Positions 13,414-37,284 of a stretch of DNA of 64,000 nucleotides are shown here, piece after piece. The notes under the pieces are model-generated. The model did no database searches and was not told the origin of the DNA. It worked only from the letters and a program-made list of their open reading frames with translations. Source of the stretch: Escherichia phage vB_EcoM-S1P5QW; sequence record OL956808.1; one strand, written 5' to 3'. Positions within the stretch are counted from its first letter, which is position 1. The number at the start of each line of letters is the position of its first letter. Both the position numbers and the translations under genes were made by a program.

Positions 13414-16110
13414 ATGAAAGAATTTTATATCTCTATCGAAACAGTCGGAAATAATATTGTTGAACGTTATATTGATGAAAACGGAAAGGAACGTACTCGT
13501 GAAGTAGAATATCTTCCGACTATGTTTAGGCATTGTAAGGAAGAGTCAAAATACAAAGACATCTATGGTAAAAACTGCGCTCCTCAAAAATTTCCATCAA
13601 TGAAAGATGCTCGAGATTGGATGAAGCGAATGGAAGACATCGGTCTCGAAGCTCTCGGTATGAACGATTTTAAACTCGCTTATATCAGTGATACGTATGG
13701 TTCAGAAATTGTTTATGACCGAAAATTTGTTCGTGTAGCTAACTGTGACATTGAGGTTACTGGTGATAAATTTCCTGACCCAATGAAAGCTGAATATGAA
13801 ATTGATGCTATCACTCATTACGATTCAATTGATGATCGTTTTTATGTTTTCGACCTTTTGAATTCAATGTACGGTTCAGTATCAAAATGGGATGCAAAGT
13901 TAGCTGCTAAGCTTGACTGTGAAGGTGGTGATGAAGTTCCTCAAGAAATTCTTGACCGAGTAATTTATATGCCATTCGATAATGAGCGTGATATGCTCAT
14001 GGAATATATCAATCTCTGGGAACAGAAACGACCTGCTATTTTTACTGGTTGGAATATTGAGGGATTTGACGTTCCGTATATCATGAATCGCGTTAAAATG
14101 GTTCTCGGTGAACGTAGTATGAAACGCTTCTCTCCAATCGGTCGAGTAAAATCTAAACTAATTCAAAATATGTACGGCAGCAAAGAAATTTATTCTATTG
14201 ATGGCGTATCTATTCTTGATTATTTAGATTTGTATAAGAAATTCGCATTTACTAATTTGCCGTCATTCTCTTTGGAATCAGTTGCTCAGCATGAAACCAA
14301 AAAGGGTAAATTACCATACGACGGTCCTATTAATAAACTTCGTGAGACTAATCATCAACGATACATTAGTTATAACATCATTGACGTAGAATCAGTTCAA
14401 GCAATTGATAAAATTCGCGGGTTTATCGATCTAGTTTTAAGTATGTCTTATTACGCTAAAATGCCTTTTTCCGGTGTAATGAGTCCTATTAAAACTTGGG
14501 ATGCTATTATTTTTAACTCATTGAAAAGTGAACATAAGGTTATTCCTCAACAAGGTTCGCACGTTAAACAAAGTTTTCCGGGTGCATTTGTATTTGAACC
14601 TAAACCGATTGCTCGTCGATACATTATGAGTTTTGACTTGACGTCTCTGTATCCTAGCATTATTCGTCAGGTTAACATTAGTCCTGAGACTATTCGTGGG
14701 CAGTTTAAAGTTCATCCAATTCATGAATATATCGCAGGAACAGCTCCTAAACCGAGTGATGAATATTCTTGTTCTCCGAATGGATGGATGTACGATAAGC
14801 ATCAAGAAGGTATCATTCCAAAGGAAATCGCTAAAGTATTTTTCCAGCGTAAAGATTGGAAAAAGAAAATGTTCGCTGAAGAAATGAATGCCGAAGCTAT
14901 TAAAAAGATTATTATGAAAGGCGCAGGGTCTTGTTCAACTAAACCTGAAGTTGAACGATATGTTAAGTTCAGTGATGATTTCTTAAATGAACTATCGAAT
15001 TATACTGAATCTGTTCTCAATAGTTTGATTGAAGAATGTGAAAAAGCAGCTACACTTGCTAATACAAATCAGCTGAACCGTAAAATTCTTATTAACAGCC
15101 TTTACGGTGCTCTTGGTAATATTCATTTCCGTTACTATGATTTGCGAAATGCTACTGCTATCACAATTTTTGGTCAAGTTGGTATTCAGTGGATTGCTCG
15201 TAAAATTAATGAGTATCTGAATAAAGTATGTGGAACTAATGGCGAAGATTTCATCGCAGCAGGTGATACTGATTCGGTATATGTTTGTGTAGATAAAGTT
15301 ATTGAAAAAGTAGGTCTTGACCGATTCAAAGAGCAGAACGATTTGGTTGAATTTATGAATCAGTTCGGTAAGAAAAAGATGGAACCTATGATTGATGTTG
15401 CATATCGTGAGTTATGTGATTATATGAATAACCGCGAGCATCTGATGCATATGGACCGTGAAGCTATTTCTTGCCCTCCGCTTGGTTCAAAGGGTGTTGG
15501 TGGATTTTGGAAAGCGAAAAAGCGTTATGCTCTGAACGTTTATGATATGGAAGATAAGCGTTTTGCTGAACCACATCTAAAAATCATGGGTATGGAAACT
15601 CAGCAGAGTTCAACGCCTAAAGCGGTCCAAGAAGCTCTCGAAGAAAGTATTCGTCGTATTCTTCAGGAAGGTGAAGAGTCTGTCCAAGAATATTACAAGA
15701 ACTTCGAGAAAGAATATCGTCAACTTGACTATAAAGTTATTGCTGAAGTAAAAACTGCGAACGATATAGCGAAATATGATGATAAAGGTTGGCCAGGATT
15801 TAAATGCCCGTTCCATATTCGTGGGGTGCTAACTTATCGTCGAGCTGTTAATGGTCTGGGTGTAGCTCCAATTTTGGATGGAAATAAAGTAATGGTTCTT
15901 CCATTACGTGAAGGAAATCCATTTGGTGACAAGTGTATTGCTTGGCCGTCGGGCACAGAACTTCCAAAAGAAATTCGTTCTGACGTACTGTCTTGGATTG
16001 ACTACTCAACTTTGTTCCAAAAATCGTTTGTTAAACCGCTTGCAGGCATGTGTGAATCGGCTGGTATGGACTATGAAGAAAAAGCTTCGTTAGACTTCCT
16101 GTTTGGCTGA
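13414..16110 (+). CDS. 43: DNA polymerase gp43 (family B)
   Basis: 898 aa; exo motifs and polymerase motifs (DTDS, YGDTDS-like); matches recalled T4 gp43. Confidence 0.97.
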   Translation: MKEFYISIETVGNNIVERYIDENGKERTREVEYLPTMFRHCKEESKYKDIYGKNCAPQKFPSMKDARDWMKRMEDIGLEALGMNDFKLAYISDTYGSEIVYDRKFVRVANCDIEVTGDKFPDPMKAEYEIDAITHYDSIDDRFYVFDLLNSMYGSVSKWDAKLAAKLDCEGGDEVPQEILDRVIYMPFDNERDMLMEYINLWEQKRPAIFTGWNIEGFDVPYIMNRVKMVLGERSMKRFSPIGRVKSKLIQNMYGSKEIYSIDGVSILDYLDLYKKFAFTNLPSFSLESVAQHETKKGKLPYDGPINKLRETNHQRYISYNIIDVESVQAIDKIRGFIDLVLSMSYYAKMPFSGVMSPIKTWDAIIFNSLKSEHKVIPQQGSHVKQSFPGAFVFEPKPIARRYIMSFDLTSLYPSIIRQVNISPETIRGQFKVHPIHEYIAGTAPKPSDEYSCSPNGWMYDKHQEGIIPKEIAKVFFQRKDWKKKMFAEEMNAEAIKKIIMKGAGSCSTKPEVERYVKFSDDFLNELSNYTESVLNSLIEECEKAATLANTNQLNRKILINSLYGALGNIHFRYYDLRNATAITIFGQVGIQWIARKINEYLNKVCGTNGEDFIAAGDTDSVYVCVDKVIEKVGLDRFKEQNDLVEFMNQFGKKKMEPMIDVAYRELCDYMNNREHLMHMDREAISCPPLGSKGVGGFWKAKKRYALNVYDMEDKRFAEPHLKIMGMETQQSSTPKAVQEALEESIRRILQEGEESVQEYYKNFEKEYRQLDYKVIAEVKTANDIAKYDDKGWPGFKCPFHIRGVLTYRRAVNGLGVAPILDGNKVMVLPLREGNPFGDKCIAWPSGTELPKEIRSDVLSWIDYSTLFQKSFVKPLAGMCESAGMDYEEKASLDFLFG

Positions 16111-16123
16111 TAGAATAAATCTA

Positions 16124-16145
16124 GGGACCTCCGGGTCCCTTTTTC
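16124..16145 (+). terminator. GGGACC-UCCG-GGUCCC hairpin plus T5
   Basis: Strong hairpin 14 nt after gene 43 stop. Confidence 0.6.
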
Positions 16146-16209
16146 ATACAAGTAATATAAATCTATACTTATGAAAAACAGATGATTCTGGACCTTTAGA
16201 ATTCCCTAA

Positions 16210-16262
16210 AAAAATTTCACAAAACTGTTTACAAGACTGTTCTTCCATGGTACTATACAACT
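16210..16262 (+). promoter_or_regulatory. T4-type early promoter (-35 GTTTACA, -10 TACTAT)
   Basis: TTTCACAAAACTGTTTACAAGACTGTTCTTCCATGGTACTATACAA; near-identical module recurs at 43940..44002. Confidence 0.55.
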
Positions 16263-16284
16263 ATCAACTACGGAGGAACACAAA

Positions 16285-16536
16285 ATGAAAAATATTCAAA
16301 CTAATTTTATTCAAAATTTAAAAGTTGTTAACGCAGAAAAAGCTAATAAACTCTTTAAAGTTAAAGAATTTGAAAATGAAGGTAACACTTACGGTATTAT
16401 AGAACAAAATGGAATGGTTACTGGATTAGAAATTTATAATGGTAAAGGAAAATTTCAGTCACAGCCAATTTCTGTTATGGGTGTAAGAAAAGGAATTAAA
16501 ACTGAAGATGCTTTAAAGTTATTTGTTAAGTTTTAA
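16285..16536 (+). CDS. Hypothetical protein (83 aa)
   Basis: ORF with RBS GGAGGAAC downstream of early promoter. Confidence 0.6.
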   Translation: MKNIQTNFIQNLKVVNAEKANKLFKVKEFENEGNTYGIIEQNGMVTGLEIYNGKGKFQSQPISVMGVRKGIKTEDALKLFVKF

Positions 16537-16548
16537 GAGGAAATTATT

Positions 16549-16929
16549 ATGAAAATCGCTATTTTGGTTATTGCATTAGGTCTTACTGGTTGTGTGGCTC
16601 AAGGACCGGTAGTAAATCAGTCTGATGTAGGAAAAATTGTAAACTGTTCAAGCAAGTTTTATAATCCTAATGTCAAGTGTTATAAAGAAGCTCCAAAGCA
16701 AACAGTAGAACAAATGCAGGCGAATTTTGACGAAGCTATTCGTCCAGATGAATCTGCTCAAGCATATCGTAATTCGGATGTAATTACACGCGAAGAAAAA
16801 ATTGAAAACTACTGCGCCGAGCTTTGGGCTAATTGGGCTAATAATTACCAATGGCGTACCGGTAAAAATGCTCCGATGGAGTATGTAGTGAATTCTTATA
16901 ATTCATGCGTAAAAAATTTGACTAAGTGA
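16549..16929 (+). CDS. Predicted lipoprotein (126 aa)
   Basis: Signal peptide MKIAILVIALGLTGC with lipobox LTG-C; four further Cys; adjacent to imm. Confidence 0.6.
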   Translation: MKIAILVIALGLTGCVAQGPVVNQSDVGKIVNCSSKFYNPNVKCYKEAPKQTVEQMQANFDEAIRPDESAQAYRNSDVITREEKIENYCAELWANWANNYQWRTGKNAPMEYVVNSYNSCVKNLTK

Positions 16930-16936
16930 GGAAAAC

Positions 16937-17188
16937 ATGGAAACTTTAGTAGCAGGTTCAATTTTTATGGTTTTAGTTTCAGGCGTGTTGGCTATTATTA
17001 TATACATGCTTCCATGGTTTATCGCCTTGATGCGTGGGTCAAAATCGACAGTAGGAATCTTTTTCACGTCTTTACTGTTTAACTGGTCAATTATTGGTTG
17101 GTTTATTACATTTATTTGGTCAATTGCGGGTGAAACTAAAAAGTCTGCACAGCCAAATCAGGTAATTATCATCAGAGAGAAGGAATGA
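16937..17188 (+). CDS. imm: Superinfection immunity membrane protein Imm (probable)
   Basis: 83 aa, two TM segments, position between 43 and 42 as in T4. Confidence 0.65.
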   Translation: METLVAGSIFMVLVSGVLAIIIYMLPWFIALMRGSKSTVGIFFTSLLFNWSIIGWFITFIWSIAGETKKSAQPNQVIIIREKE

Positions 17189-17334
17189 AAAGCAAAATTA
17201 TAGCAGTGTTGCTTTTAATCTTGATGATTATAATAAGTATATACTATAGTGTAACGGTTCCTCTTATGATTCCAACTATTATTTTAGGTTGGAGCTTATT
17301 ACTGTTACAAGTTAAATATGAATGTATCAATTGA
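17185..17334 (+). CDS. Small membrane protein (49 aa), not in ORF track
   Basis: ATGA overlap with imm; hydrophobic sequence MKSKIIAVLLLILMIIISIYY... Confidence 0.45.
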   Translation: MKSKIIAVLLLILMIIISIYYSVTVPLMIPTIILGWSLLLLQVKYECIN

Positions 17335-17341
17335 GGTTTAA

Positions 17342-18082
17342 ATGATTAGTGACTCTATGACAGTTGAAGAAATCCGTCTTCATTTGGGGCTTGCATTAAA
17401 GGAAAAAGATTTCGTAGTTGATAAAACTGGTGTTAAAACTGTTGAAATTATTGGCGCATCATTTGTAGCAGATGAACCCTTTATTTTTGGCGCTCTTAAT
17501 GATGAATACATTCAGCGTGAACTTGAATGGTACAAGTCTCAAAGTCTGTTTGTTAAAGATATTCCAGGTGAAACACCAAAGATTTGGCAGCAGGTAGCAT
17601 CTTCTAAAGGCGAAATTAACTCGAATTATGGTTGGGCTATTTGGTCAGAAGATAACTATGCCCAGTATGATATGTGTTTAGCTGAACTTGGTCAAAATCC
17701 TGATTCTCGACGTGGTATCATGATTTATACTCGTCCATCTATGCAGTTTGACTATAATAAAGATGGTATGTCAGATTTCATGTGCACGAATACAGTACAG
17801 TACCTGATTCGTGACAAGAAAGTCAATGCAGTAGTAAGCATGCGCTCAAATGACGTGGTCTTCGGATTCCGTAATGATTATGCATGGCAAAAATACGTAT
17901 TAGATAAATTAGTATCTGATTTGAATGCAGGCGATTCAACTCGTCAGTATAAAGCAGGTTCTATTATATGGAATGTTGGAAGTCTTCATGTATATTCTCG
18001 TCATTTTTACTTGGTTGATCATTGGTGGAATACTGGCGAAACTCATATTGTGAAAAAAGACTATAAAGGTGAGTGGAAATGA
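17342..18082 (+). CDS. 42: dCMP hydroxymethylase gp42
   Basis: 246 aa; matches recalled T4 gp42 throughout. Confidence 0.95.
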   Translation: MISDSMTVEEIRLHLGLALKEKDFVVDKTGVKTVEIIGASFVADEPFIFGALNDEYIQRELEWYKSQSLFVKDIPGETPKIWQQVASSKGEINSNYGWAIWSEDNYAQYDMCLAELGQNPDSRRGIMIYTRPSMQFDYNKDGMSDFMCTNTVQYLIRDKKVNAVVSMRSNDVVFGFRNDYAWQKYVLDKLVSDLNAGDSTRQYKAGSIIWNVGSLHVYSRHFYLVDHWWNTGETHIVKKDYKGEWK

Positions 18083-18921
18083 TTCAATTCGTAATTCCAA
18101 GTTATCAACGTGTCGGGGCAGTTTCTGCCCTTGATATGTTTCCGACTGATTATGAACCGCATATTGTAGTGCGTGAACACGAAGAAAAAGCTTATTATGA
18201 TGCTTATGGGTCTAGAGCTAAAATTATAACTATTCCTGATGATGTAAACGGAATTGCCGGTACTCGTAAAGCAATTACTGATATGTATGCAGGTCAACGA
18301 ATTTGGATGATTGACGATGATACTACTATTCGTATGAGTTCAATGCGAAAAAGAGATGACCGTCGTTGTGTGGATAAAGTCAATCAATTGACTCATGAAC
18401 AGTTCTATGAATTGATTCAATATGTTGAGGATGCCATGGATTGTGGGTATTATCATGGCCATGCTCGTCTACCTATTTTTAAAATTACTTCATCTTGGGG
18501 CAATTATCGTGAAAATTCATATGGATTCACGAATACATGGTATGACCTCGGAAAACTTACTACAGAACAAATTGGGTATGGAAAAATTGATTTATGCGAA
18601 GATATGTATGCATTTCTCAATTTAATTAGTCAAGGTTATCCGCATTTGGCCTTGTTCAAATATCTGGTTGTATCTGGAAAAGCACAAGCTCCTGGCGGGT
18701 GTAGTTCAATTCGTAGTAATTCTAAACATAATAGAGCGCTTGAGCAAATCAATAGAGAGTTTCCAGAGCAAGCTCGTTGGAAAACTTCTAATATTGAAAA
18801 ACGAAAATCGTTGGGTGAAGAAGACGAGCCATTAAAGGTTCTTCGCATGTGTGTTTCACGTAAAGAAAAATCAGAAGCATTTCATAAGTTTAATGCTATT
18901 CATCCAATAGCAGTTGATTAA
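18073..18921 (+). CDS. Glycosyltransferase with DxD motif occupying the T4 beta-gt locus; candidate beta-1,6-glucosyl-alpha-glucose transferase (T2/T6 type)
   Basis: 282 aa, WMIDDDTT DxD motif; lies between 42 and uvsX where T4 carries the unrelated 351-aa beta-gt. Confidence 0.55.
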   Translation: MEMIQFVIPSYQRVGAVSALDMFPTDYEPHIVVREHEEKAYYDAYGSRAKIITIPDDVNGIAGTRKAITDMYAGQRIWMIDDDTTIRMSSMRKRDDRRCVDKVNQLTHEQFYELIQYVEDAMDCGYYHGHARLPIFKITSSWGNYRENSYGFTNTWYDLGKLTTEQIGYGKIDLCEDMYAFLNLISQGYPHLALFKYLVVSGKAQAPGGCSSIRSNSKHNRALEQINREFPEQARWKTSNIEKRKSLGEEDEPLKVLRMCVSRKEKSEAFHKFNAIHPIAVD

Positions 18922-22511: not shown

Positions 22512-22805
22512 ATGAAAAAATTTATTTTTGCTACAATTTTTACTTTGGCTTCTTGTGCTGCTCAGCCTGCTATGGCAGGTTATGATAAAGATTTGTGTGA
22601 ATGGTCTATGACTGCAGATCAGACTGAAGTTGAAACTCAAATTGAAGCGGATATTATGAATATCGTTGAGCGTGATCGTCCTGAAATGAAAGCTGAAGTA
22701 CAAAAACAGCTTAAGTCTGGTGGTGTAATGCAGTATAATTATGTTCTGTATTGCGATAAAAACTTTAATAACAAAAATATCATCGCTGAAGTGGTAGGTG
22801 AATAA
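22512..22805 (+). CDS. sp: Spackle (Sp) periplasmic superinfection-exclusion protein (probable)
   Basis: 97 aa with N-terminal signal peptide MKKFIFATIFTLASCAAQPAMA; T4 61.3 position. Confidence 0.75.
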   Translation: MKKFIFATIFTLASCAAQPAMAGYDKDLCEWSMTADQTEVETQIEADIMNIVERDRPEMKAEVQKQLKSGGVMQYNYVLYCDKNFNNKNIIAEVVGE

Positions 22806-36644: not shown

Positions 36645-37018
36645 TTATGTTTAAAATCGGTAAGAAATATCGTATTCGCGAAGGCGAAGAAAAGAAATAT
36701 CTAATGTCTGCTATTTATAGGAATGGTTCTATTAATGCTGTAATATCTACAAGCGAATTTATCGTTGAAGATATGAAAGGTCATAATGTTACAATGATTA
36801 GTACAGCATCTGGAAATGATGGAAAAATTCTTCATAGTTGTCAGAGTAATGTTCTAATTTATGATGAAGAATTTGACTTCTTCAAAGAAGTTTCCGAAGA
36901 TTTTGATTTTGAATGTACTATTACTATGAAATCTGGTGACCCTCTTTCTTTTACAGTTAAAGATGAAAGAAGCCGTTTAAGAATTATTAGTCTCCTTCAA
37001 GCTATTAAATTTAAGTGA
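36641..37018 (+). CDS. Hypothetical protein (125 aa)
   Basis: ORF (GTG 36641 or ATG 36647). Confidence 0.6.
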   Translation: MIMFKIGKKYRIREGEEKKYLMSAIYRNGSINAVISTSEFIVEDMKGHNVTMISTASGNDGKILHSCQSNVLIYDEEFDFFKEVSEDFDFECTITMKSGDPLSFTVKDERSRLRIISLLQAIKFK

Positions 37019-37284
37019 AAATTATGAAATATATTAATCGTTCTATTGCAGCATTAGTATTAGCAGTATCTTTAGTAGGATGCACTGATGCTGATAATGC
37101 AACTAAAATTTTATCATCAAGTGGTTTTACGAATATTGAAATCACTGGATATAATTGGTTTGGTTGTTCTGAAAATGATTTCCAACATACTGGATTTCGT
37201 GCTATTGGACCTACTGGGCAGAAAGTAGAAGGAACAGTATGTTCTGGGCTGTTCTTTAAGGATTCAACTATTCGTTTTAAATAA
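37015..37284 (+). CDS. Predicted lipoprotein (89 aa)
   Basis: Signal peptide with lipobox LVG-C (MKYINRSIAALVLAVSLVGC). Confidence 0.55.
   Translation: MKIMKYINRSIAALVLAVSLVGCTDADNATKILSSSGFTNIEITGYNWFGCSENDFQHTGFRAIGPTGQKVEGTVCSGLFFKDSTIRFK

What the first reader, a model, noticed from the sequence alone, without database searches (positions are those of the whole stretch)
16549..16929. Predicted lipoprotein encoded next to imm; candidate envelope-acting exclusion factor
The 126-aa ORF begins MKIAILVIALGLTGC, a signal peptide with canonical lipobox (LTG-C), and has four additional Cys in the mature part. It lies between gene 43 and the Imm membrane protein, a region devoted to superinfection exclusion in T4. 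A second lipobox-containing ORF (37015..37284, LVG-C) precedes gene 39, and Sp (22512..22805) also carries a signal peptide. Phage lipoproteins commonly mask receptors or modulate envelope integrity.
Basis: partly seen in the sequence, partly recalled or inferred. Interest (0 to 1): 0.45.

Follow-up and report, generated by a model that had tools for sequence, protein, structure and literature searches.

The report
T4 imm.1: early periplasmic lipoprotein
The ORF is the already-annotated but uncharacterised T-even phage gene imm.1, which very probably encodes an early lipoprotein tethered in the host periplasm and almost always sits next to the superinfection-immunity gene imm, making it a reasonable but unproven candidate helper in blocking second infections.

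Summary
Window 16549..16929 (+) encodes a 126-aa protein with a canonical lipoprotein signal (MKIAILVIALGLTG-C15) and four further Cys. It lies between gene 43 and imm in a Tequatrovirus genome about 99% identical to RB27.

It is the orthologue of T4 imm.1 (124/125 identical; Pfam DUF5481, PHROG 1754), whose function is unknown.

- **Real and expressed:** pN/pS is 0.10 or less, and T4 omics class it as early RNA and early protein. A T4 CRISPRi screen found it dispensable.
- **Lipobox conserved:** 25 of 27 family members keep it, none with Asp at +2, so outer-membrane sorting is predicted. Two lineages carry a signal-peptidase-I site instead, so export is universal but the lipid anchor is not.
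- **Cysteines:** mature-part Cys always number 2 or 4, which suggests disulfides.
- **Linkage to imm:** the gene adjoins imm in five Tevenvirinae genera, including Mosigvirus, where imm.1-imm sits beside sp. CC31 keeps the lipoprotein with no imm at all.
- **Against receptor masking:** the protein is near-identical in T2, T4 and T6.
- **No fold match.**

Verdict: a known gene, a secure lipoprotein call, and a plausible but untested exclusion role.

The parts
16123..16140 (+). Terminator-like GC-rich hairpin plus T-run just after gene 43
   Evidence: Consensus scan; sequence. Function is inferred.
16228..16256 (+). Sigma-70/T4-early-like promoter (G)TTTACA - 17 nt - TGnTACTAT upstream of the ORF83-imm.1-imm-42.1-42 gene string
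   Evidence: Consensus scan; sequence. This is a pattern match only. Early transcription of T4 imm.1 is shown in PMC9697503 supplementary file 4.
16285..16536 (+). 83-aa ORF (RB51ncORF048c type, PHROG 18567). It occupies a variable slot between 43 and imm.1 and is not part of the conserved unit.
   Evidence: Only 31 of 517 matching records cover at least 80% of 16100-17400. T4 has no ORF here.
16537..16541 (+). Shine-Dalgarno GAGGA of imm.1, 7 nt before the ATG
   Evidence: Sequence.
16549..16929 (+). imm.1 CDS, 126 aa including stop; predicted prolipoprotein (Pfam DUF5481, PHROG 1754)
   Evidence: Purifying selection, pN/pS 0.10 or less.
16549..16593 (+). Signal peptide ending in the lipobox L12-T13-G14-C15. 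The Cys15 codon is 16591-16593. Val at +2.
   Evidence: Sequence; rule scan; conserved in 25 of 27 members with no Asp at +2.
16594..16641 (+). Predicted flexible tether (VAQGPVVNQSDVGKIV). It is shared with remote homologues and missing from the two non-lipoprotein variants.
   Evidence: Alignments; hhalign; pLDDT below 50.
16645..16680 (+). C33...C44 segment carrying the most conserved motif, (K/L)(F/I)YNPx(V/I)K(C/Q)Y. Tyr38 is invariant family-wide. The two Cys are present together or absent together.
   Evidence: The disulfide is inferred.
16789..16923 (+). C-terminal helical hairpin (residues 81-125) holding the invariant Cys89 and Cys120
   Evidence: AlphaFold2 pLDDT 86-94 in this part only. 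C89 and C120 are invariant in 27 sequences. The disulfide is inferred.
16928..16932 (+). Shine-Dalgarno GAGGA of imm, overlapping the imm.1 TGA stop (7-nt intergenic gap)
   Evidence: Sequence. Translational coupling is inferred.
16937..17188 (+). imm, the superinfection-immunity inner-membrane protein and the conserved neighbour
   Evidence: Pfam PF14373, E 7.7e-16; PHROG 1039.
17185..17334 (+). 42.1, a 49-aa hydrophobic ORF whose start overlaps the imm stop (ATGA). It is a frequent but not universal third member of the string.
   Evidence: Intact but unannotated in T4. Absent after imm in Mosigvirus and Moonvirus.

Best explanation
The ORF is the orthologue of T4 imm.1.

**Shown or strongly predicted.**
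- It is a real gene under purifying selection.
- It is transcribed and translated early, from the same gene string as imm.
- It is exported by a Sec-type signal ending in a canonical lipobox. Lgt/LspA/Lnt should therefore acylate Cys15.
- With Val rather than Asp at +2, the Lol pathway should deliver it to the inner leaflet of the outer membrane, facing the periplasm.
- The mature 111-aa protein has a roughly 15-residue flexible tether, a loop with the invariant YNPxxK.Y motif, and a helical hairpin. C33-C44 probably bridge the loop and C89-C120 probably staple the hairpin.

**Inferred.** It is an accessory envelope factor of the T-even superinfection-immunity module. It acts by protein binding in the periplasm on something common to all T-even infections. 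Candidates are the incoming tail-tip and DNA-delivery apparatus, or the envelope site where it operates. It would work alongside inner-membrane Imm and periplasmic Sp. The effect would be to modulate exclusion, or to protect the envelope against secondary adsorption, rather than to create exclusion on its own.

It does not mask a specific outer-membrane receptor.
For: **Identity.** The window matches RB27 and TadeuszReichstein at 99%. The gene is annotated imm.1 in T4 and RB51. It is 124/125 identical to T4 and 125/126 to T6. It scores 239 bits on DUF5481 against a cut-off of 27 and matches PHROG 1754.

**Real and expressed.** Synonymous differences number 4-13 against 0-2 non-synonymous ones, giving pN/pS of 0.10 or less. 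T4 imm.1 is classed 'early-RNA_early-Protein', together with sp (PMC9697503 supplement).

**Lipoprotein.** The lipobox rule hits only 3 genuine genes in the window. The lipobox is kept in 25 of 27 members. The +2 residue is A, V, G, S or Q and never D. Mature-part Cys always number 2 or 4. The tether is lost exactly in the two variants that lack the lipobox.

**Structure.** The hairpin has pLDDT 86-94 and carries the invariant C89 and C120.

**Linkage to imm.**
- The imm.1 stop overlaps the imm Shine-Dalgarno.
- The gene is immediately upstream of imm in every DUF5481 lineage examined.
- In Mosigvirus the pair sits at the 41-61 locus, directly followed by sp.
- Remote homologues in Moonvirus and Gelderlandvirus are also directly upstream of imm. 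In Gaprivervirus the homologue follows imm-42.1.
- Homology of these remote forms is supported by hhalign probability 97.9%, 79% without the signal peptide, and full-length PHROG 1754 matches at E 1e-43 to 1e-48.

**Accessory status.** It was 'Not Fit' in the T4 CRISPRi-ART screen (PMC11879866 supplement).

**Common target.** The protein is invariant across T2-, T4- and T6-type phages.
Against: - No experiment links Imm.1 to exclusion. No paper in the searchable library reports a function.
- CC31 (Karamvirus) has the homologue between 43 and 42 but no Imm homologue anywhere. The best six-frame HMM hit has E 0.056, against 1e-29 to 1e-42 for positive controls. The protein can therefore work without Imm.
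- Imm is far more widespread (1858 phage records, including siphophages and mycobacteriophages) and usually lacks this partner.
- From memory, not verified here: Imm expressed alone from a plasmid excludes T4, and interrupting imm abolishes immunity (Lu & Henning 1989). That would leave Imm.1 neither necessary nor sufficient.
- Adjacency in related genomes is partly inherited synteny. Only the Mosigvirus relocation and the Gaprivervirus reordering are independent events.
- Two lineages lack the lipid anchor.
- A lipobox-like match can mislead. Sp also passes the rule yet is regarded as a soluble protein.
- The N-terminal two-thirds of the model is low-confidence, and no fold match exists.
Confidence: 0.4

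Rival explanations
1. It is an envelope-acting early accessory protein whose job is unrelated to superinfection exclusion. Examples would be neutralising a host or prophage envelope-associated defence or stress response, or tuning lysis or lysis inhibition. Its position next to imm would then reflect only shared early expression and inherited gene order.
For: - CC31 keeps the gene without any imm.
- Imm mostly occurs without it.
- It is dispensable in standard laboratory infection, as many conditional counter-defence genes are.
- It diverges quickly between genera, about 33% identity against 62% for Imm between Tequatrovirus and Mosigvirus.
Against: - The imm.1-imm pair stayed together when relocated in Mosigvirus and landed beside sp.
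- The gene stays in the imm cluster even when the order is permuted in Gaprivervirus.
- The imm.1 stop overlaps the imm ribosome-binding site.
- There is no match to any PADLOC or NCBIfam family.
Confidence: 0.3
2. It is a periplasmic inhibitor of a peptidoglycan hydrolase or another periplasmic enzyme. It would work like Sp, or like the lipoprotein lysozyme inhibitor MliC, by inserting the conserved disulfide-bounded YNPxxK loop into the target.
For: - It is co-expressed early with Sp.
- It has a small disulfide-bonded, largely helical periplasmic domain, as Sp does (Sp described in PMC7677548).
- The conserved loop is flanked by covarying Cys.
- It sits next to sp in Mosigvirus.
Against: - There is no sequence or fold similarity to Sp (Pfam T4_Spackle not hit) or to any solved inhibitor.
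- The loop Cys pair is missing in most lineages.
- This is purely an analogy.
Confidence: 0.1
3. It is a secreted but not lipidated protein. Signal peptidase I would cleave it, for example after C-V-A17, to give a soluble periplasmic protein.
For: - Two lineages (P0004 AHA|S, P0008 AHA|E) have clear signal-peptidase-I sites at the aligned position and no Cys.
- Sp shows that a lipobox-like string can occur in a T4 signal peptide regarded as cleaved by signal peptidase I.
Against: - L-T-G-C is a textbook lipobox, and T4 has L-A-G-C.
- The Cys is kept in 25 of 27 members, always with G, A or S at -1.
- A tether follows the Cys only in the lipobox-bearing forms.
- UniProt and genome annotators already name homologues 'Lipoprotein'.
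Confidence: 0.1
4. It is a receptor-masking lipoprotein of the T5 Llp / Cor type. It would bind a specific outer-membrane receptor from the periplasmic side and block adsorption.
For: - It is a small periplasm-facing outer-membrane lipoprotein with probable disulfide(s), expressed early. That is the same general architecture as Llp (PMC9586334).
Against: - The protein is 99% identical in T4 and T6, and 98.4% in T2-type records, although those phages use different receptors by established knowledge.
- The gene is next to imm, not next to a receptor-binding protein gene.
- By established knowledge, T-even exclusion does not block adsorption.
- No Pfam hit other than DUF5481.
Confidence: 0.05

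Closest known systems
T4 Imm.1 (NP_049661, UniProt P18057; Pfam DUF5481 / PHROG 1754)
   Same: It is the orthologue: 124/125 identical, in the same position between 43 and imm, with the same lipobox apart from Thr13 in place of Ala13. The T4 protein is early at both RNA and protein level and dispensable.
   Different: Nothing substantive. In this window an extra 83-aa ORF separates it from gene 43. The database names 'iduronate sulfatase' and 'immunity protein' are not backed by any evidence found here.
T5 Llp and the Cor lipoproteins (superinfection-exclusion outer-membrane lipoproteins)
   Same: All are small phage-encoded lipoproteins that face the periplasm from the outer membrane, contain an intramolecular disulfide and act on the envelope early in infection (PMC9586334).
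   Different: Llp and Cor bind one receptor (FhuA), and the llp gene is adjacent to the receptor-binding protein gene. Imm.1 is invariant across phages with different receptors and sits next to imm. No sequence or fold similarity was detected.
T4 Spackle (Sp, gp61.3)
   Same: Both are early, exported, small, helical and disulfide-bonded periplasmic proteins of T-even phages. Sp is encoded directly after imm.1-imm in Mosigvirus.
   Different: There is no homology, since Pfam T4_Spackle does not hit Imm.1. Sp has a defined target, the gp5 lysozyme, whereas Imm.1 has none known. Sp is treated as soluble, whereas Imm.1 is predicted to be lipid-anchored.
Ltp of Streptococcus thermophilus phage TP-J34 (from memory, not checked here)
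   Same: It is a lipoprotein that blocks DNA injection rather than adsorption, reportedly by engaging the tape-measure protein. This is the closest mechanistic precedent for what is proposed here.
   Different: It comes from a Gram-positive host, is anchored to the cytoplasmic membrane, and is encoded by a prophage. No sequence relationship was tested.
PHROG 1754 lipoproteins of Moonvirus, Gelderlandvirus, Karamvirus and Gaprivervirus (e.g. Merlin, S16/Melville 'putative conserved lipoprotein', CC31p042, VR26 gp045)
   Same: They share the same architecture: lipobox, tether, an aromatic motif, and a helical hairpin with two invariant Cys. They occupy the same 43/imm/42 neighbourhood.
   Different: They are 20-40 residues longer and only 15-22% identical. 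They do not reach the DUF5481 Pfam model. In CC31 there is no imm in the genome.

Membership tests
Bacterial lipoprotein (Lgt/LspA substrate; PROSITE PS51257 rule) | Positively charged n-region (K/R within the first 7 residues) followed by an uncharged hydrophobic core | tested here: met
   Lys2 is present. Residues 3-11 (IAILVIALG) carry no charge, and mean Kyte-Doolittle hydropathy is 2.43.
Bacterial lipoprotein (Lgt/LspA substrate; PROSITE PS51257 rule) | Lipobox [LVI][ASTVI][GAS]-C with the Cys at position 15-35 | tested here: met
   The lipobox is L12-T13-G14-C15. The Cys sits at the lower limit of the allowed range.
Bacterial lipoprotein (Lgt/LspA substrate; PROSITE PS51257 rule) | Lipobox Cys conserved in homologues | tested here: met
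   25 of 27 members keep it (LTGC 9, LSGC 8, LAGC 5, LVGC 1, TTGC 1, LTAC 1). The two exceptions have signal-peptidase-I sites.
Bacterial lipoprotein (Lgt/LspA substrate; PROSITE PS51257 rule) | Actual diacylglyceryl modification and globomycin-sensitive cleavage | not testable with these tools
   This needs labelling or inhibitor experiments. SignalP and LipoP were not available.
Outer-membrane-sorted lipoprotein (Lol pathway, E. coli +2 rule) | No Asp at position +2 after the lipidated Cys | tested here: met
   The window protein has Val at +2. Across the 25 lipobox-bearing members the residue is A 14, V 8, G 1, S 1, Q 1 and never D. The localisation itself was not tested.
Pfam DUF5481 (PF17578) / PHROG 1754 | HMM match above the curated threshold over the full domain | tested here: met
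   PF17578 scores 239.2 bits against a cut-off of 27, covering profile positions 1-103 of 103. PHROG 1754 matches at E 5e-44.
Imm superinfection-immunity protein (PF14373) | Imm_superinfect domain with two transmembrane segments | tested here: not met
   Imm.1 has no PF14373 hit. The neighbouring ORF 16937..17188 is the Imm family member.
T4 Spackle (PF25676) | T4_Spackle HMM match | tested here: not met
   No hit at E of 1 or less for Imm.1. Sp itself hits at 2e-44.
Llp/Cor receptor-blocking lipoproteins | Specificity for one outer-membrane receptor, with the gene linked to the receptor-binding protein gene | tested here: not met
   The protein is 99% identical in T4 and T6, and 98.4% in T2-type records. 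The gene lies between 43 and imm. That these phages use different receptors is established knowledge, not tested here.
Llp/Cor receptor-blocking lipoproteins | Sequence or fold similarity to Llp or Cor | tested here: inconclusive
Outer-membrane spanin subunit (Rz1 / T4 PseT.2 type) | Late-expressed lipoprotein encoded within or next to an inner-membrane spanin gene in the lysis cassette | tested here: not met
   The T4 orthologue is early at RNA and protein level. Its neighbours are 43, imm and 42, not lysis genes. In CC31, pseT.2 and pseT.3 lie elsewhere in the genome.

The most novel reading that the evidence does not exclude
Imm.1 is the missing outer component of a trans-envelope T-even immunity device. 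It would be an outer-membrane-tethered periplasmic protein that recognises a genus-specific part of the incoming tail tip or DNA-delivery complex. Working with inner-membrane Imm, and with Sp where present, it would divert superinfecting DNA into the periplasm. That would explain three observations: the imm.1-imm pair moves as a unit, Imm.1 diverges much faster between genera than Imm, and it is invariant within a genus. It would also give a handle on the still-unknown mechanism of Imm and on the periplasmic signal for lysis inhibition.
Probability: 0.2. Interest if true: 0.7.

Novelty: new member of a known kind. Interest (0 to 1): 0.4.

Why it matters
How Imm stops DNA entry, and what periplasmic signal from superinfecting phage triggers lysis inhibition, are old open questions in T4 biology. 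No answer to either turned up in the literature searched here.

Imm.1 is conserved, made early and faces the periplasm. It is tied to imm across several genera and has never been tested. It is therefore a cheap and specific candidate to knock out and to use in pull-downs.

If it turns out to have a different role, it is still one of the few predicted outer-membrane lipoproteins of a model lytic phage. It is near-universal in the 656 Tequatrovirus and Mosigvirus records that match it, a group that includes many isolates from pathogenic E. coli and Shigella hosts.

As it stands, the result is mostly a clarification. The gene is known, the lipoprotein call is sound, and the function is unproven.

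Tried and rejected
- **Family libraries added nothing.** NCBIfam and PADLOC gave only sub-threshold matches, all below the curated NCBIfam cut-offs.
- **Literature was empty on function.** Searches for DUF5481, imm.1, P18057, phrog_1754 and T4p046 found no functional study. The classic Lu & Henning papers and the T4 genome review are not held, so statements about them are from memory. The transposon-mutagenesis preprint does not mention the gene.
- **A supposed third genomic location was dropped.** I first took the P0004 contig to be a third location because of an upstream frd.3-like gene. Translating its first ORF showed the gp43 C-terminus, so it is the ordinary 43-imm.1 locus with a different filler gene.
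- **The obligate Imm partnership was dropped** after the whole-genome CC31 scan.
- **Receptor masking and a spanin role were rejected.** See the membership tests.
- **Very few homologues outside Tevenvirinae-like contexts.** There are only 6 representatives at 50% identity among 1.84 billion proteins, and 26 clusters with the widened profile. Two hits carry bacterial names. The Enterobacter kobei hit lies on a 346-kb contig, about twice a Karamvirus genome, and is probably a phage assembly. That was not checked.
Full report
**What is there**

The window is a Tequatrovirus genome segment. The 16100-17400 stretch is 99.1-99.3% identical to phages RB27 and TadeuszReichstein, and 96.8% identical to T2.

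The gene order on the + strand is:
- gene 43, DNA polymerase (13414..16110);
- an 83-aa ORF (16285..16536);
- the ORF in question (16549..16929);
- imm (16937..17188);
- a 49-aa hydrophobic ORF, 42.1 (17185..17334);
- gene 42 (17342..18082).

The flagged ORF is annotated imm.1 in T4 (NP_049661) and RB51. Its product is 124/125 identical to T4 Imm.1 and 125/126 identical to the T6 protein. It matches Pfam DUF5481 at 239 bits against a cut-off of 27, and PHROG 1754, which has no assigned function.

Database names such as 'iduronate sulfatase' and 'immunity protein' appear in many records. I found nothing to support them.

**Checking the observation**

The protein begins MKIAILVIALGLTG-C15. It has a Lys n-region, an uncharged hydrophobic core, the lipobox L-T-G-C and Val at +2. 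Four more Cys lie at positions 33, 44, 89 and 120. A GAGGA Shine-Dalgarno lies 7 nt upstream.

I applied a PROSITE PS51257-style rule to every ORF of at least 60 aa in all six frames (165 ORFs, 767 candidate starts). Only three real genes pass: this one, the ORF at 37015/37024..37284, and Sp. One non-canonical hit falls in a spurious minus-strand ORF. The signal is therefore rare in this sequence.

The side remarks are also correct. The second lipobox ORF is gene 39.1 (PHROG 902, found in 1070 phage records). The 22512..22805 ORF is Sp.

**Is it a real, expressed gene?**

I compared the window gene with six Tequatrovirus orthologues of equal length. There are 4-13 synonymous differences but only 0-2 non-synonymous ones, so pN/pS is 0.10 or less.

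Published T4 time-course omics class imm.1 as early at both RNA and protein level. That is the same class as sp, dmd and 61.4 (PMC9697503, supplementary files 4 and 6).

A promoter-like element, (G)TTTACA-17-TGnTACTAT at 16228-16256, follows a terminator-like hairpin at 16123-16140. These are pattern matches only.

In the genome-wide T4 CRISPRi-ART screen, knock-down of imm.1 was 'Not Fit' (score -0.77, p 0.98). The gene is therefore dispensable for growth under those conditions (PMC11879866, supplementary file 15).

**The family and its lipobox**

The family is very narrow. A full HMMER scan of 1.84 billion representative proteins gave six hits. In GenBank phages the protein occurs in 656 records: 501 at more than 95% identity (Tequatrovirus) and 155 at about 33% (Mosigvirus).

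More distant relatives exist in Moonvirus (Merlin, Moon), Gelderlandvirus (S16, Melville), Karamvirus (CC31, PG7) and Gaprivervirus (VR26, SP18). Their homology is supported in three ways:
- profile-profile alignment over the full length, probability 97.9%, E 3.6e-13;
- the same alignment with the signal peptide removed, probability 79%, E 1.5e-5, in the same register with both C-terminal Cys aligned;
- full-length matches of all four types to PHROG 1754, E 1e-43 to 1e-48.

I aligned 27 non-fragment members. Of these, 25 carry a lipobox (LTGC, LSGC, LAGC, LVGC, TTGC or LTAC). The +2 residue is A, V, G, S or Q and never Asp, which by the E. coli rule predicts Lol-dependent sorting to the outer membrane. 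The number of Cys in the mature part is always 2 or 4.

Tyr38, Cys89 and Cys120 are invariant. Cys33 and Cys44 are present together or absent together. These patterns fit an oxidised periplasmic protein with one or two disulfides. The disulfides themselves are inferred.

Two lineages (P0004, P0008) have no lipobox Cys. They have classic signal-peptidase-I sites instead (AHA|S, AHA|E), and they lack the 'QGPVVNQSDVGK' segment that follows the Cys in the others. That segment is therefore best read as the flexible tether of the lipidated forms.

What it shows is that export is universal and the lipid anchor is dispensable for the family. It does not show that the window protein is unsecreted.

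One caution applies. Sp also passes the lipobox rule although it is treated as a soluble 75-aa protein. A pattern match alone is not proof.

**Structure**

AlphaFold2 gave mean pLDDT of 66 with 7 sequences and 68 with 27. Only a C-terminal helical hairpin (residues 81-125, pLDDT 86-94) is confident, and it carries Cys89 and Cys120.

**Genomic association with imm**

In the window, the imm.1 stop codon lies inside the imm Shine-Dalgarno, leaving a 7-nt gap.

- In every DUF5481 lineage I could place on a contig, the gene is immediately upstream of an Imm_superinfect gene.
- In Mosigvirus the pair is not between 43 and 42. It lies in the 41-61 region, in the order dmd, a 61.4-like ORF, imm.1, imm, sp. 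The two genes therefore sit together at a different locus, next to the other known exclusion gene. Each record holds a single copy.
- In Moonvirus and Gelderlandvirus the remote homologue is again directly upstream of imm.
- In Gaprivervirus the order is 43, imm, 42.1, lipoprotein.

This is the main evidence for a functional tie. There are real counter-points:
- In Karamvirus CC31 the homologue lies between 43 and 42 with no imm beside it. A six-frame HMM scan of the whole 165.5-kb genome finds no Imm homologue. The best E-value is 0.056, against 1e-29 to 1e-42 for positive controls.
- Conversely, Imm homologues occur in 1858 phage records, including siphophages and mycobacteriophages that lack this protein.
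- Much of the adjacency among related genera is inherited synteny rather than independent evidence.
- From memory only, since the papers are not held: Lu and Henning showed that plasmid-borne Imm alone excludes T4 and that interrupting imm abolishes immunity. If so, Imm.1 would be neither sufficient nor strictly necessary.

**Mechanism**

The most likely picture runs as follows. The protein is made in the first minutes of infection. It is exported, acylated at Cys15 and carried to the periplasmic face of the outer membrane. There its small disulfide-stabilised domain hangs on a roughly 15-residue tether and binds a partner. The invariant aromatic motif and the helical hairpin are the likely binding surfaces.

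The protein is almost identical in T2-type, T4 and T6 phages, which by established knowledge use different receptors. T-even exclusion is also known not to block adsorption. A receptor-masking mechanism of the T5 Llp type (PMC9586334) is therefore unlikely.

A target common to T-even infections fits better. That could be a part of the incoming tail tip or DNA-delivery machinery, or the envelope site it uses. This would also fit the much faster divergence of Imm.1 than Imm between genera, about 33% against 62% identity.

I put the lipoprotein and periplasmic part at about 0.85, outer-membrane location at about 0.7, and the role in superinfection immunity or protection against secondary adsorption at about 0.35-0.4. 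The rivals are an unrelated envelope role, a hydrolase inhibitor, a soluble periplasmic protein, and receptor masking. They are listed with their evidence in the rival-explanations section.

**Comparison with known systems and novelty**

The gene itself is already known and annotated. Homologues are already labelled 'Lipoprotein' or 'putative conserved lipoprotein' by UniProt and by genome annotators. The lipoprotein call is therefore not new.

No functional study was found.

What this analysis adds:
- the family-wide lipobox and +2 statistics;
- the two anchor-less variants;
- the link between DUF5481 and the longer lipoproteins of four other genera;
- the Mosigvirus arrangement in which imm.1-imm sits beside sp;
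- the CC31 exception.

If the exclusion role is real, Imm.1 would be a new member of the known class of phage lipoproteins that act in superinfection exclusion. It would work more like an injection blocker than a receptor blocker.

**Verdict**

Interest is moderate. A specialist would not be surprised that T4 encodes another small envelope protein. Even so, this one is a specific and cheap candidate for probing how Imm works.

Noticed in passing
window 22512..22805 (Sp); L004 3237..3530; L086 18342..18623 (minus strand): The Sp signal peptide contains a lipobox-like string with a Cys at position 15 (T4-type LASC). The Cys is kept in the Mosigvirus ST0 Sp (AVSC) and in the CC31 Sp-like protein (ISSC). 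In each case an AxA signal-peptidase-I site follows 7 residues later. Sp is treated in the literature as a soluble 75-aa periplasmic protein. Whether it is in fact lipid-anchored looks untested.
   Followed up: partly
window 17185..17334; L001 (T4) between imm and gene 42: The 49-aa hydrophobic ORF 42.1 overlaps the imm stop (ATGA). It is intact in T4 but not annotated in NC_000866. It also follows imm in Gaprivervirus and in the P0004 contig, but not in Mosigvirus or Moonvirus.
   Followed up: partly
window 16285..16536: An 83-aa ORF (PHROG 18567, unknown function) fills a variable slot between gene 43 and imm.1. Only 31 of 517 matching phage records cover at least 80% of 16100-17400. T4 has nothing there, Sf22 has a different small ORF, and one metagenomic relative has a frd.3-like gene.
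   Followed up: partly
window 37015..37284 (probable start 37024): The second lipobox ORF is gene 39.1 (PHROG 902, unknown function). It is much more widespread than imm.1, with 1070 phage records including Klebsiella, Enterobacter, Serratia and even a Rhizobium phage. Lipobox conservation across these was not checked.
   Followed up: partly
P0002, P0003 (relatives of window 16549..16929): Public assemblies contain a frameshifted 112-aa form and an 86-aa form lacking the signal peptide. These are either occasional pseudogenes or assembly errors.
   Followed up: no
P0013 (homologue named Enterobacter kobei, contig 346,245 bp): One homologue is filed under a bacterial name. The contig is about twice the length of a Karamvirus genome, so it may be a phage assembly rather than a chromosomal gene.
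   Followed up: no
window 18073..18921: The gene after 42 is a 282-aa T2/T6-type beta-glucosyl-HMC-alpha-glucosyltransferase-like protein, not the T4 beta-glucosyltransferase. The T4 segA gene is also absent from this stretch.
   Followed up: no
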